Shown here in pieces: positions 32,481 to 33,458 of a DNA stretch of 64,000 nt. The translations under genes and the position numbers were made by a program. The stretch lies in NCBI RefSeq assembly GCF_045037415.1, contig NZ_CP173438.1. One strand, given 5' to 3'. This stretch comes from Escherichia coli (lineage in GTDB: Bacteria > Pseudomonadota > Gammaproteobacteria > Enterobacterales > Enterobacteriaceae). The notes beneath the pieces are model-generated. The model worked only from the letters and a program-made list of their open reading frames with translations, had not been told where the DNA came from and made no database searches. Within the stretch, counting starts at the first letter, position 1. Each line of letters begins with the position of its first letter.

Positions 32481-33458
32481 TCACCCCCTGAATCCCGGCG
32501 GTATTTCAGTGTCCGGTTCAGAAATGTGATTCACGCAACGCTGCGCAGGCGAACGCCCCAGGCGGATAACCAGTTCATCCCATTTTTCCCGGAGTTTTGC
32601 CGGACTCATGATGTTTTTTACCCAGAACGAATCCCGCTGGAGACGCCCAAACATTTCACAAATTTGTCTGTGAGTTCTGCCATCCAGCATCCGCATTGTG
32701 CGAACGTCATTGGCCCATGCTGTCCAGTTGGGTTCTTTCGGTCTAGTGATCTCGCCATCATAGCTGGCCGCCTGCTCGTAAAGACTCACGATTCGTCCCC
32801 AGATCCACTGTGCGCACACCAAATCTTCCTGACTTCCCCACTGGCGTTTTTTCGCACTGAACACAACCGCGTCAGGGTGTCGGGTTAAAAAATCCTGTTC
32901 AGCCGTCTGCGGGTCCGGTTGCGAAGCGTCCGGACAAGAAGATCTTTTATCTGACGGATCAGGTTTTAATACTGACGGATCGGGGTCAATCATCGGCCCC
33001 CTAATCGGCAGTTTTTTATCAACAGTTGATCCATCAAAATTTGACGGGTCAACCGTTGAGGGGTCAATATTTGACGGGTCAACTGTTAACGGGTCATTTT
33101 TTGCCGGGCTAATTTTTCTTTTCGGTTTATATGACTCACGCGCCGCCGCCGCAGCTGCTTCGAGTTTTTCCACATTAAGCCGATAGATATTGCTTACATT
33201 ACGCCCACCGACCTTACGCTCTTCCTTCGTCAGCCAGCCCTCTTTCGCCAGTTCTGCAATAGCCGATTTCACTGTGGATTCACTTCTTGCACCGATCTGA
33301 CGCCGGATAGTTTCAATGGCAGGCCATGACACGCCCTCGTCATTGCTGTAGTCTGCAAGACGGGCCATAACCGCCACCCTGGATAAGATCATGCCGGTGA
33401 AGGCGCACCCTTCCCAGACAAGACCATGAAGCTTGCTGCTCATAAAACCCCCGAACAC
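32481..33458 (-). CDS. Replication initiation protein (O-like; start possibly at internal Met at 33443)
   Basis: N-terminal HTH-like region, central linker encoded by the iteron DNA, position upstream of the DnaC-like gene. Confidence 0.7.
   Translation of the reverse strand: MFGGFMSSKLHGLVWEGCAFTGMILSRVAVMARLADYSNDEGVSWPAIETIRRQIGARSESTVKSAIAELAKEGWLTKEERKVGGRNVSNIYRLNVEKLEAAAAAARESYKPKRKISPAKNDPLTVDPSNIDPSTVDPSNFDGSTVDKKLPIRGPMIDPDPSVLKPDPSDKRSSCPDASQPDPQTAEQDFLTRHPDAVVFSAKKRQWGSQEDLVCAQWIWGRIVSLYEQAASYDGEITRPKEPNWTAWANDVRTMRMLDGRTHRQICEMFGRLQRDSFWVKNIMSPAKLREKWDELVIRLGRSPAQRCVNHISEPDTEIPPGFRG
32945..33100. repeat. Iteron-like direct repeats (putative replication origin) inside the O-like gene
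   Basis: Repeated TGACGGGTCAA / TGAGGGGTCAA / TAACGGGTCA / TGACGGATC units; encode DPSNIDPSTVDPSNFDGSTVD. Confidence 0.6.

What the first reader, a model, noticed from the sequence alone, without database searches (positions are those of the whole stretch)
32945..33100. Iteron array embedded in the replication-initiator gene
At least six copies of a TGACGGGTCAA-like unit lie inside the O-like ORF, the lambda-type arrangement of ori within O. They encode the repetitive DPS-rich linker of the protein.
Basis: seen in the sequence. Interest (0 to 1): 0.3.

Follow-up and report, generated by a model that had tools for sequence, protein, structure and literature searches.

The report
Prophage replication origin inside initiator gene
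A run of short symmetric DNA repeats inside the replication-initiator gene of a common E. coli lambdoid prophage is very probably that phage's origin of replication, the same arrangement as in phage lambda but with a different binding domain and repeat sequence: ordinary in kind, and not annotated in the records I saw.

Summary
Five 12-bp palindromes (TTGA-N4-TCAA) sit at exact 15-bp steps at 33026-33097. A sixth, degenerate copy lies in phase at 33101-33112, and two related CTGACGGATC copies lie at 32951 and 32972. All are inside the O-like initiator gene (32481-33443, minus strand). They encode the DPS-rich linker, which AlphaFold predicts to be disordered.

Every relative examined has its own repeats at the same place in the gene. 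The 15 closest share the TGA-N4-TCA core. More distant ones, and mEp460, lambda and phi80, carry different repeats.

The constraint acts on the DNA rather than the peptide:
- Serine codons inside the units are TCA in 34 of 38 cases, against 22 of 169 elsewhere.
- Third-codon-position identity rises in the array and peaks at 0.72-0.79 in a conserved core (32919-32993).
- Units occur in both orientations (CCCC or GGGG centre), which changes the peptide but not the duplex site.

The protein has a winged-helix N-terminal domain (Pfam HTH_36, not lambda O's), a lambda-O-type C-terminal domain, and a C-terminal tail resembling that of DnaT. A DnaC-like loader gene follows it.

Verdict: a phage origin, unannotated in the records I saw, and a new member of a known kind. 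Origin function is inferred, not tested. Interest is modest.

The parts
32481..33443 (-). O-like replication initiator gene (320 aa from the RefSeq ATG; a GTG at 33458 is an alternative start)
   Evidence: ORF list. PHROG 391 'replication initiation O-like', E = 4e-115. Pfam HTH_36 at aa 30-76. RefSeq names it only 'helix-turn-helix domain-containing protein'.
33129..33443 (-). Coding region for the N-terminal winged-helix DNA-binding domain (aa 1-105), the presumed iteron reader
   Evidence: AlphaFold2 gives pLDDT 76-89 with helix/strand topology H-H-H-H-E-E-H. Foldseek's best matches are MarR/PadR-type dimeric winged-helix regulators, with weak E-values around 4e-3. Pfam HTH_36.
33019..33112 (.). 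Iteron array: 15-bp period, five good units plus one degenerate unit
   Evidence: TRF period 15 and period 30. The repeat finder family D1. Cluster statistics.
33101..33112 (.). Unit 0, degenerate, in phase: TTGCCGGGCTAA
   Evidence: Read from the sequence. Three mismatches to TTGACGGGTCAA, 15 bp from unit 1.
33086..33097 (.). Unit 1: TTAACGGGTCAT (coding strand ATGACCCGTTAA, N-D-P-L)
33071..33082 (.). Unit 2: TTGACGGGTCAA, symmetric arms (V-D-P-S)
33056..33067 (.). Unit 3: TTGAGGGGTCAA (I-D-P-S)
33041..33052 (.). Unit 4: TTGACGGGTCAA (V-D-P-S)
33026..33037 (.). Unit 5: TTGATCCATCAA (F-D-G-S), contains a GATC
32919..32993 (.). Conserved ori core shared by relatives with different iterons, C-terminal domains and loaders. 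It holds two GATC-type iteron-like sites, A-rich tracts and TCTTCTTGTCCGGAC. It is a candidate unwinding or helicase-loading zone.
   Evidence: Third-codon-position identity across 15 relatives is 0.72-0.79 here, against 0.30-0.45 in the folded domains. DNA alignment. The least stable 40-bp stretch of the gene is 32936-32976, GC 0.34, z = 2.05.
32972..32984 (.). GATC-type iteron-like site A: CTGACGGATCGGG (coding strand cGATCCGTCAG)
   Evidence: the repeat finder family D3. Conserved in all 15 relatives.
32951..32963 (.). GATC-type iteron-like site B: CTGACGGATCAGG (coding strand TGATCCGTCAG), 21 bp from site A
   Evidence: the repeat finder family D3. Core TGA-N4-TCA at 32952. Conserved in relatives.
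33096..33136 (.). A+T-rich tract on the promoter-proximal side of the array (GC 0.32). Its coding strand, AAACCGAAAAGAAAAATTAG, resembles by eye lambda's A-rich tract ACAAAAGAAAAAAGAAAAG. It is a second candidate unwinding element.
   Evidence: Stability profile, z = 1.67. Sequence. The segment is absent from SfIV-type relatives.
32925..33122 (-). Coding region for the predicted disordered linker (aa 108-173). The iteron array and most of the conserved core (from 32925) lie within it; the core's last two codons, 32919-32924, fall just outside.
   Evidence: AlphaFold2 pLDDT below 50 for residues 108-173.
32553..32912 (-). Coding region for the lambda-O-type C-terminal domain (aa 178-297)
   Evidence: BLASTP against lambda O: 35% identity, E = 5e-26. 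Against phi80 gp15: 36%, E = 4e-26. pLDDT 75-89. This half is exchanged independently of the N-terminal half plus ori.
32484..32546 (-). Coding region for the C-terminal tail QRCVNHISEPDTEIPPGFRG, 14 of 20 residues identical to the last 20 residues of E. coli DnaT
31728..32474 (-). DnaC-like helicase-loader gene, starting 6 nt after the initiator's stop codon
   Evidence: Pfam IstB_IS21. PHROG 50. NCBIfam NF009043. 48% identical to E. coli DnaC.

Best explanation
This is the replication origin of a lambdoid prophage, embedded in the linker-coding part of its own initiator gene.

Proposed mechanism:
1. Dimers of the initiator's N-terminal winged-helix domain bind the symmetric 12-bp sites TTGA-(G/C)4-TCAA. 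The sites are packed at a 15-bp pitch, about 1.4 helical turns, so neighbouring dimers would sit on nearly opposite faces of the helix.
2. They also bind the two conserved GATC-containing sites 40-70 bp further into the gene, forming an O-some-like complex.
3. The complex destabilises one of the flanking low-stability, A-rich tracts. The conserved core at 32919-32993 is the better candidate; 33096-33136 is the alternative.
4. The lambda-O-type C-terminal domain and the DnaT-like tail bring in host DnaB, carried by the phage's DnaC-like loader (or by host DnaC).

Shown here: the repeats, their phasing and symmetry, their conservation, the DNA-level constraint, the protein's domain architecture and the modular inheritance.

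Inferred: binding, unwinding, helicase loading and origin activity.
For: 1. The array is real and non-random.

2. It lies between a winged-helix domain and a lambda-O-type C-terminal domain, in a predicted disordered linker. This is the position of the annotated iterons in lambda O and phi80 gene 15.

3. Ten relatives with a 47-54% identical N-terminal part (query aa 1-173) have 4-7 units of 15 nt at the same gene position: SfIV, phiNP, YeP1, phiP27, LLS and several Klebsiella phages. Their consensus is TCTGAC-nCn-TCAAAA.

4. Closer relatives in Citrobacter, Salmonella, Edwardsiella, Serratia, Erwinia, Morganella and Klebsiella carry 42 units of TTGA-[CCCC 20, GGGG 10, CCCG 4, CGGG 3]-TCAA. 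Spacing is 15 nt in 29 of 34 adjacent pairs.

5. The constraint is on the DNA rather than the peptide.
- Serine codons in the units are TCA in 34 of 38 cases, against 22 of 169 outside the linker region.
- The third base of the codon before Asp is T in 38 of 42 units, although the amino acid there takes nine different values.
- Units occur in both orientations, giving D-P-S or E-G-S from the same duplex site.
- Third-position identity is 0.55-0.62 in the array and 0.72-0.79 in the core, where amino-acid identity is only 0.3-0.6. In the folded domains it is 0.30-0.45 with amino-acid identity of 0.55-0.86.

6. Repeat type tracks N-terminal domain type. More distant HTH_36 initiators (S107, ZF40, RAH1, Min27, Vibrio D62) have different repeats at the same place, of roughly 21-24 nt where I judged the period and with inverted repeats visible in most. 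mEp460 has a third N-terminal type with its own repeats but the same C-terminal half.

7. The N-terminal domain and ori are inherited together. In 80 IMG/VR loci, nt 1-480 are nearly invariant, and divergence starts at about nt 480. BLAST homology to phages with other N-terminal types stops at 32948 or 32981.

8. The ori zone is the least stable part of the gene and holds 4 GATC in 100 bp, which places it in the top 0.16% of 100-bp windows in this sequence.

9. The literature describes this arrangement for lambda, P22 and L, each with its own repeats inside the initiator gene (PMC8022706, PMC7466680).
Against: - No replication, binding or unwinding assay exists for this element or its family in the literature I could search.
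- The A+T-rich element is weak: GC 0.29-0.34 over 40 bp, z about 2, and within the least stable 2.5% of 40-bp positions in the window. It is much less striking than lambda's, and its position is ambiguous, with candidates on both sides of the array.
- Repeat units are related by descent and possibly by gene conversion. The codon statistics therefore overstate independence.
- High synonymous conservation of the core could partly reflect its role as a recombination junction between modules.
- A 15-bp pitch is shorter than that of the classical iterons compared here: about 20-24 bp start to start in lambda and 21 bp in phi80.
- It is not resolved which palindrome is the protein's site, TTGA-N4-TCAA or the interleaved TCAA-N3-TTGA.
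Confidence: 0.8

Rival explanations
1. The repeats matter only as protein. They encode a repetitive, flexible D-P-S-x-x linker that expands and contracts by slippage, and the DNA has no cis-acting role.
For: The segment encodes a pentapeptide repeat in a predicted disordered linker. Copy number varies between relatives, for example 733R5 against Klebsiella phage 1 LV-2017, which differ by two units.
Against: - The peptide is not conserved: the position before Asp takes nine different residues and the middle position seven, and the units read D-P-S, E-G-S, N-P-P, S-D-A-S-K and so on. The DNA core is conserved.
- Synonymous positions are the conserved ones.
- Units flip orientation.
- Distant relatives encode entirely different peptides (PVPPKST, GAGAA), but always as DNA repeats, most of them with visible internal dyad symmetry.
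Confidence: 0.06
2. The repeats are initiator-binding sites used for control, such as autoregulation, titration or handcuffing, or replication-type incompatibility. DNA unwinding and helicase loading happen at a separate origin elsewhere in the prophage.
For: The A+T-rich element next to the array is weak. In iteron plasmids, extra iterons serve control functions (general knowledge; reviewed in PMC4980987).
Against: - No second cluster of the motif exists anywhere in the 64-kb window.
- The position is that of the proven origins of lambda and phi80.
- A strongly DNA-constrained core lies directly beside the array.
- No promoter-like site overlaps the array.
Confidence: 0.08
3. The conserved core (32919-32993) is conserved because it is a module junction, a homology patch at which lambdoid phages recombine to swap initiator halves. 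On this view it is not a functional part of the origin.
For: BLAST homology to phages with other N-terminal types ends at 32948 or 32981. Divergence among otherwise identical copies begins at about gene nt 480. mEp460 shares only the sequence downstream of this point.
Against: - The core contains two iteron-like TGA-N4-TCA or cGA-N4-TCA sites at a fixed 21-bp spacing, together with GATC sites conserved across genera. A mere homology patch would not require these.
- The two roles are not mutually exclusive.
Confidence: 0.06

Closest known systems
Phage lambda ori and O protein (four iterons at 39034-39118 inside gene O)
   Same: - Tandem initiator-binding repeats with internal dyad symmetry lie in the middle of the initiator gene, at about 35-48% of its length.
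- They sit between the N-terminal DNA-binding domain and the C-terminal loader-binding domain.
- The C-terminal domain is homologous (35% identity).
- The gene lies in the early-right operon after the cro and cII-like genes.
   Different: - The N-terminal domain is Pfam HTH_36, not TIGR01610 phage_O_Nterm.
- The units are TTGA-S4-TCAA at a 15-bp pitch, whereas lambda has 18-bp sites (start-to-start spacing 20-24 bp) reading ATCCCTCAAAACGAGGGA.
- The A+T-rich tract is much weaker.
- The partner is a DnaC-like AAA+ loader, not lambda P.
- The C-terminal tail resembles DnaT's rather than lambda O's ..TDWIYGVDL.
Phage phi80 ori and gene 15 (four annotated gp15 sites, TTCCCGAAAACGGGAA, 21-nt period)
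   Same: - The repeats lie inside the initiator gene and impose a repetitive peptide on the linker (ETGRKFP KTGKSFP KSGITFP), just as the 15-nt units here impose DPSxx.
- The C-terminal domain is 36% identical.
   Different: phi80 has a lambda-type N-terminal domain, a 21-nt period, an unrelated site sequence and a P-type partner (gp14).
Salmonella phages P22 and L, gene 18 (repeats inside the initiator gene; L has six imprecise copies of the 11-bp sequence TGTCCAACGGA)
   Same: Distantly related ori-binding proteins each carry their own short repeats within their coding region (PMC8022706). As here, the origin in L is inferred from sequence only.
   Different: The protein family and repeat sequence differ. 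The partner is a DnaB-type helicase (gp12), not a DnaC-type loader.
Stx phage 933W/'P27' lambda-type origins with six iterons (PMC7466680)
   Same: Iteron number varies and changes the length of the O linker: two extra iterons add 13 residues. Here each unit adds 5 residues, and the number of units in the contiguous arrays I curated varies from 4 to 7 among relatives, apparently fewer in some proteins of the alignment.
   Different: Those origins are true lambda-specificity iterons and O proteins. This element is a different specificity class.
Iteron plasmids (pSC101, P1, R6K, RK2; reviewed in PMC4980987)
   Same: A winged-helix initiator binds tandem repeats next to an unwinding region.
   Different: Plasmid iterons lie outside the rep gene, are 17-22 bp long and roughly phased with the helix, and are read by Rep monomers (general knowledge). 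Here the symmetric sites lie inside the gene at a 15-bp pitch.

Membership tests
Lambdoid 'ori inside the initiator gene' origins (lambda, phi80, 82, P22, L) | Three or more tandem repeats with internal dyad symmetry inside the initiator ORF | tested here: met
   Five or six units of TTGA-N4-TCAA at 15-bp steps, 33026-33112.
Lambdoid 'ori inside the initiator gene' origins (lambda, phi80, 82, P22, L) | Repeats located between the N-terminal DNA-binding domain and the C-terminal loader-interaction domain | tested here: met
   AlphaFold2 domains at aa 1-105 and 178-297, with the linker at 108-173 holding the array and most of the conserved core. Lambda and phi80 annotations place their repeats at the same relative position.
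Lambdoid 'ori inside the initiator gene' origins (lambda, phi80, 82, P22, L) | Repeat sequence changes together with the type of N-terminal domain, and the two are inherited as one module | tested here: met
   Three or more N-terminal types each have their own repeats. The N-terminal half plus ori is invariant while the C-terminal half is mosaic.
Lambdoid 'ori inside the initiator gene' origins (lambda, phi80, 82, P22, L) | Adjacent A+T-rich DNA unwinding element | tested here: inconclusive
   The least stable 40-bp stretches of the gene flank the array (32936-32976, 33002-33042, 33096-33136). They are modest, GC 0.29-0.34 and z about 2, and lie on both sides.
Lambdoid 'ori inside the initiator gene' origins (lambda, phi80, 82, P22, L) | The initiator protein binds the repeats, and the fragment supports replication | not testable with these tools
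   The only hint is a 15,977-bp circular record (NZ_CP148542) made of this prophage's early region with no other replicon typed. It may be an assembly product.
Lambda O protein family (TIGR01610 phage_O_Nterm / lambda iteron specificity) | N-terminal domain matches phage_O_Nterm | tested here: not met
   Lambda O hits TIGR01610 at 5e-39; the window protein has no hit. Pfam gives HTH_36 instead.
Lambda O protein family (TIGR01610 phage_O_Nterm / lambda iteron specificity) | C-terminal domain homologous to the lambda O C-terminal domain | tested here: met
   35% identity over 148 aa, E = 5e-26.
Lambda O protein family (TIGR01610 phage_O_Nterm / lambda iteron specificity) | Iterons of the lambda sequence type (ATCCCTCAAAACGAGGGA) | tested here: not met
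   The units are TTGA-S4-TCAA. The alignment with lambda ori shows no iteron homology.
PHROG 391 'replication initiation O-like' | Full-length profile match | tested here: met
   E = 4.4e-115, residues 6-325 against profile positions 1-298 of 298.
DnaT (primosomal protein I), the name some phage records give this protein | Homology to the DnaT N- and C-terminal domains | tested here: not met
   Only the last 20 residues match (14 of 20 identical). The NCBIfam score is 16.7 against a cut-off of 201.

The most novel reading that the evidence does not exclude
The element may represent a distinct origin design.

- Symmetric 12-bp sites are usable in either orientation and packed at 15 bp.
- A near-invariant core (GATCCGTCAG twice, plus an A-tract) is shared by phages whose iterons, C-terminal domains and loaders all differ.
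- The initiator's last 20 residues are a portable peptide shared with host DnaT.

On this reading the tail, not the lambda-O-type domain, selects the loader.
- All 7 initiators with a W-containing tail (..GWEDVL, ..TDWIYGVDL) are followed by a lambda-P-type gene.
- None of the 12 initiators with a ..P.GFR[GST] tail is. For 10 of them the next gene was examined: 2 are followed by a DnaC-like gene and 8 by no loader gene. For the other 2 (Klebsiella phages Kp4866-6 and KpnBHU6) the next gene was not established.

If so, the host dnaT-dnaC operon mirrors a phage initiator-loader pair, and the DnaT tail would be the unidentified DnaC/DnaB-recruiting element.
Probability: 0.3. Interest if true: 0.6.

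Novelty: new member of a known kind. Interest (0 to 1): 0.3.

Why it matters
The initiator type is very common. A place covering at least 80% of the gene occurs in 1513 of 5426 complete E. coli genomes, and the protein cluster holds 3163 member sequences. RefSeq nevertheless calls it only 'helix-turn-helix domain-containing protein', and no origin is annotated in the records I saw.

Marking the origin has three practical uses:
- It gives a handle for replication-module typing of lambdoid prophages, including relatives in Shigella, Salmonella, Klebsiella, Yersinia and Citrobacter phages.
- It explains why the linker of these proteins is repetitive and variable in length.
- It is a clean natural example of a cis-acting DNA element constraining synonymous sites of the gene that reads it.

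The side observation may be the more useful lead. A recent structural paper states that how DnaT recruits DnaB/DnaC 'remains unknown' (PMC13377028). The DnaT-like tail and its correlation with loader type bear directly on that question.

Tried and rejected
- **Alignment with lambda ori.** No iteron homology was found. Only the general layout matches, plus a possible resemblance in the segment after the iterons (lambda CGTCAGAGAATTCTGGCG against SfIV-type CCGTCAGAATCTGGCGG). The window itself lacks that palindrome, so I did not build on it.
- **oriC-type 13-mers and DnaA boxes.** These were matched by eye only. GATCTTTTATCTG (32941-32953) matches 9 of 11 specified positions of GATCTnTTnTTTT, but the GATC is not conserved in SfIV-type relatives. 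TTATCAACA (33016-33024) is one mismatch from a DnaA box. Neither is claimed.
- **Rac prophage oriJ as the closest tested origin.** Rac YdaU is a DUF1376 protein, a different initiator family, and has no comparable tandem array. Rejected as a comparator.
- **RNA element.** Rfam gives only a sub-threshold microRNA-hairpin match caused by the palindromes. The ssDNA hairpin potential (z = -3.3) is a by-product of the symmetric units.
- **Promoter inside the array.** None was found.
- **The search for related loci in IMG/VR.** It returned only 99-100% identical copies. These were useful for the mosaic analysis but not for divergence.
- **Plasmid search for a natural mini-replicon.** The one candidate is a 16-kb circle whose O gene is frameshifted between two GATC sites. 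That is probably a long-read error at Dam sites, so the evidence is weak.
- **Literature searches for this family's origin.** Nothing specific was found.
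Full report
**1. What is there**

The finding lies in a lambdoid prophage early region of an E. coli chromosome. Its parts are:

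| Coordinates | Strand | Gene |
|---|---|---|
| 34096-34869 | + | cI-like repressor |
| 33888-34103 | - | P22-type Cro |
| 33466-33891 | - | YdaT/cII-like |
| 32481-33443 | - | O-like initiator |
| 31728-32474 | - | DnaC-like loader |
| 30936-31706 | - | DUF1627 protein |

An identical copy in E. coli 4/1-1 sits beside ydfA, ydfB, ydfC, dicB and ydfD. The initiator is PHROG 391 'replication initiation O-like' (E = 4e-115). RefSeq calls it only 'helix-turn-helix domain-containing protein'.

**2.

TRF finds a period-15 array (5.2 copies) and a period-30 array (2.5 copies, 84% matches) at 33019-33117. TTGACNNGTCAA matches with at most 2 mismatches at 33026, 33041, 33056, 33071 and 33086, exactly 15 bp apart.

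A sixth unit, degenerate but in phase, follows at 33101. Two related sites, CTGACGGATC at 32951 and 32972, lie 21 bp apart.

Five of the 20 TGA-N4-TCA cores in the window fall within 130 bp. Markov simulations never gave more than 2 in 160 bp, and never gave a pair spaced exactly 15 bp; three such pairs are observed. Only four tandem arrays in the 64 kb reach a TRF score of 60.

The units encode NDPLT-VDPSN-IDPST-VDPSN-FDGST, followed by IDPDPSVLKPDPSD. They also miss the lower part of a conserved core that runs down to about 32919.

**3. Anatomy of the protein**

AlphaFold2, run on a 41-sequence alignment, gives four segments:
- a winged-helix domain at aa 1-105, pLDDT 76-89;
- a disordered linker at aa 108-173, pLDDT below 50;
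- a helical domain at aa 178-297;
- a disordered tail at aa 298-320.

The linker maps to window 32925-33122. The repeat array and most of the conserved core (from 32925) therefore sit in coding sequence for a segment with no predicted fold.

Foldseek's best matches for the N-terminal domain are MarR/PadR-type dimeric winged-helix regulators, which bind palindromes (E about 4e-3, weak). Pfam gives HTH_36, and lambda O's N-terminal model TIGR01610 does not match. The C-terminal domain is homologous to those of lambda O (35%, E = 5e-26) and phi80 gp15 (36%).

**4.

*Relatives at about 50% identity.* tblastn of the N-terminal part (aa 1-173) finds about 50%-identical relatives in Shigella phages SfII and SfIV, Citrobacter phiNP, Yersinia YeP1, phiP27, LLS and several Klebsiella phages. 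All carry 4-7 units of 15 nt at the same gene position, with consensus TCTGAC-nCn-TCAAAA.

*Closer relatives.* Relatives fetched from Citrobacter, Edwardsiella, Salmonella, Serratia, Erwinia and Morganella chromosomes, together with the window and a Klebsiella phage, carry 42 units of TTGA-SSSS-TCAA. Centres are CCCC (20), GGGG (10), CCCG (4) and CGGG (3). Spacing is 15 nt in 29 of 34 adjacent pairs.

*More distant HTH_36 initiators.* S107, ZF40, RAH1, Min27 and Vibrio D62 have unrelated repeats at the same place. By my reading, the period is roughly 21-24 nt where it can be judged, and most show internal inverted repeats, for example CCTGTGCC..GCACAGG.

*Other N-terminal types.* mEp460 has a third N-terminal type with its own repeats, but a C-terminal half 86% identical in DNA to the window's. 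Lambda and phi80 have annotated iterons at the same relative position.

**5. DNA-level rather than protein-level constraint**

- *Serine codons.* In 42 units from nine genes, the serine codon is TCA in 34 of 38 cases. Outside the linker region of the same genes it is TCA in 22 of 169.
- *Codon before Asp/Glu.* Its third base is T in 38 of 42 units, while the residue there takes nine different values.
- *Orientation.* TTGACCCCTCAA and TTGAGGGGTCAA are reverse complements of each other. Both occur in the same arrays, giving D-P-S or E-G-S. That is expected for a symmetric duplex site and not for a selected peptide.
- *Third-position identity across 15 codon-aligned relatives*:

| Region | Third-position identity | Amino-acid identity |
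|---|---|---|
| Folded domains | 0.30-0.45 | 0.55-0.86 |
| Iteron array | 0.55-0.62 | 0.30-0.41 |
| Core, aa 151-175 (window 32919-32993) | 0.72-0.79 | about 0.5-0.7 |

Two caveats apply. The units and the genes are related by descent, so the nominal P values (about 1e-19) overstate independence. The core is also a recombination junction.

**6. Modularity**

In 80 IMG/VR loci, nt 1-480 of the gene are almost invariant. The divergent copies (L001, L087) differ from about nt 480 onward. BLAST homology to phages with other N-terminal types ends at 32948 or 32981. The N-terminal domain and its repeats therefore travel together, as a specificity pair would.

**7. Other origin-like features**

The least stable 40-bp stretches of the gene flank the array: 32936-32976, 33002-33042 and 33096-33136, with GC 0.29-0.34 and z about 1.7-2.0. 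Four GATC sites lie within 100 bp, which puts the region in the top 0.16% of 100-bp windows in this sequence.

These features are suggestive and not strong. Which tract melts is left open. The array can form a 67-nt hairpin as ssDNA (z = -3.3), a consequence of its palindromic units. No Rfam family and no promoter-like site are present.

**8. Mechanism, and what is inferred**

Shown: the repeats, their symmetry and phasing, their conservation, the DNA-level constraint, the domain architecture and the modular inheritance.

Inferred: winged-helix dimers occupy the 12-bp sites. At a 15-bp pitch, about 1.4 turns, neighbours would sit on nearly opposite faces. With the two conserved GATC-type sites they would form an O-some-like complex that opens a flanking A-rich tract. 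The C-terminal domain and tail would then deliver DnaB through the DnaC-like loader.

Confidence that this is the origin's initiator-binding array is about 0.8.

**9. Comparison with what is known**

The arrangement is the classical lambdoid one. [quoted passage not shown] Stx-phage work shows that iteron number changes the length of the O linker (PMC7466680).

This element is not a member of the lambda-specificity class, because both the N-terminal domain and the iteron sequence fail that test. It is a new member of the same kind. I found no paper describing the origin of this HTH_36-type family.

**10. Side observation worth recording**

The last 20 residues, QRCVNHISEPDTEIPPGFRG, are 14/20 identical to the C-terminus of E. 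coli DnaT. The next gene is 48% identical to DnaC, so the pair mirrors the host dnaT-dnaC operon.

Among the initiators compared here:
- All 7 with W-containing tails are followed by a lambda-P-type gene.
- None of the 12 with ..GFR[GST] tails is. For 10 of them the next gene was examined: 2 are followed by a DnaC-like gene and 8 by no loader gene. For the other 2 (Klebsiella phages Kp4866-6 and KpnBHU6) the next gene was not established.

A 2026 structural paper says that how DnaT recruits DnaB/DnaC is unknown (PMC13377028). This correlation suggests a testable candidate.

**11. Verdict**

The element is a new member of a known kind, of modest interest (0.3). The tail and loader lead carries the higher upside.

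Noticed in passing
window 32484-32546 (minus strand), with 31728-32474: The initiator's last 20 residues are 14/20 identical to the C-terminal tail of E. coli DnaT. The adjacent gene is 48% identical to DnaC. The phage pair therefore mirrors the host dnaT-dnaC operon.
   Followed up: partly
L099-L103 (P0039, P0042, P0050, P0062, P0063) against the window, L001, L002-L005, L008, L009, L095, L098, L107; lambda L096, phi80 L097: The C-terminal tail type of the initiator tracks the loader gene. All 7 initiators with ..GWEDVL, ..AWENTL or ..DW.YGV.. tails are followed by a Phage_lambda_P-type gene. None of the 12 with ..P.GFR[GST] tails is. Two of these are followed by a DnaC-like gene. Eight are followed by a methylase, PerC-like or other non-loader gene. 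For two (L002, L095) the next gene was not established. phiP27 (L007) and YeP1 (L006) have other tails and are not counted; phiP27 is followed by DnaC-like and helicase genes.
   Followed up: partly
L003, L004, L006, L008, L009, L100-L103: In many relatives a DNA methyltransferase gene, Dam or adenine-type where the type is stated, lies one or two genes downstream of the initiator gene (directly after it in L003, L004, L008 and L009). Two GATC sites are conserved in the ori core. This raises the possibility of methylation or SeqA control of the origin.
   Followed up: no
L108 (NZ_CP148542.1, 15,977-bp circular record), nt 1675-2640: A 'plasmid' record consists of this prophage's early region, about 99% identical to window 30516-35116, with further diverged segments. 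No replicon type is assigned. Its O gene is frameshifted only between the two GATC-type sites, which looks like long-read error at Dam sites. It may be a lambda-dv-like circle or an assembly artefact.
   Followed up: partly
L007 (AJ298298 phiP27, L17-L19) against PMC7466680: The paper describes 'P27' as having a lambda-like O protein with six lambda iterons. The phiP27 genome record instead encodes an HTH_36-type initiator with 15-nt units, followed by DnaC-like and helicase genes. The discrepancy was not resolved.
   Followed up: no
window 10685-11278, within ORF 10219-12804 (minus strand): A 162-nt unit is repeated 3.3 times at 95% identity inside an 861-aa ORF. It encodes about 54-aa repeats (..IPVPRDGRDYDP..ANIPQPADGKSLTPDDVRPMLEQMVKEAVSH..).
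   Followed up: no
window 38262-38323, within ORF 36710-39181 (plus strand): A 21-nt tandem repeat (3 copies, 74% matches) lies in an acidic, low-complexity part of a long ORF (823 aa). The function of the ORF was not checked; the equivalent neighbours in other E. coli records are annotated recE or exonuclease.
   Followed up: no
L090-L094 (Min27, S107, ZF40, RAH1, Vibrio D62): Distant HTH_36 initiators share a conserved pair of GAACCAGTCA repeats, encoding RTSHSFEPVNEP, just after their own iterons. This is analogous to the GATCCGTCAG pair here and suggests a two-part origin (variable iterons plus a conserved pair) across the wider family.
   Followed up: no
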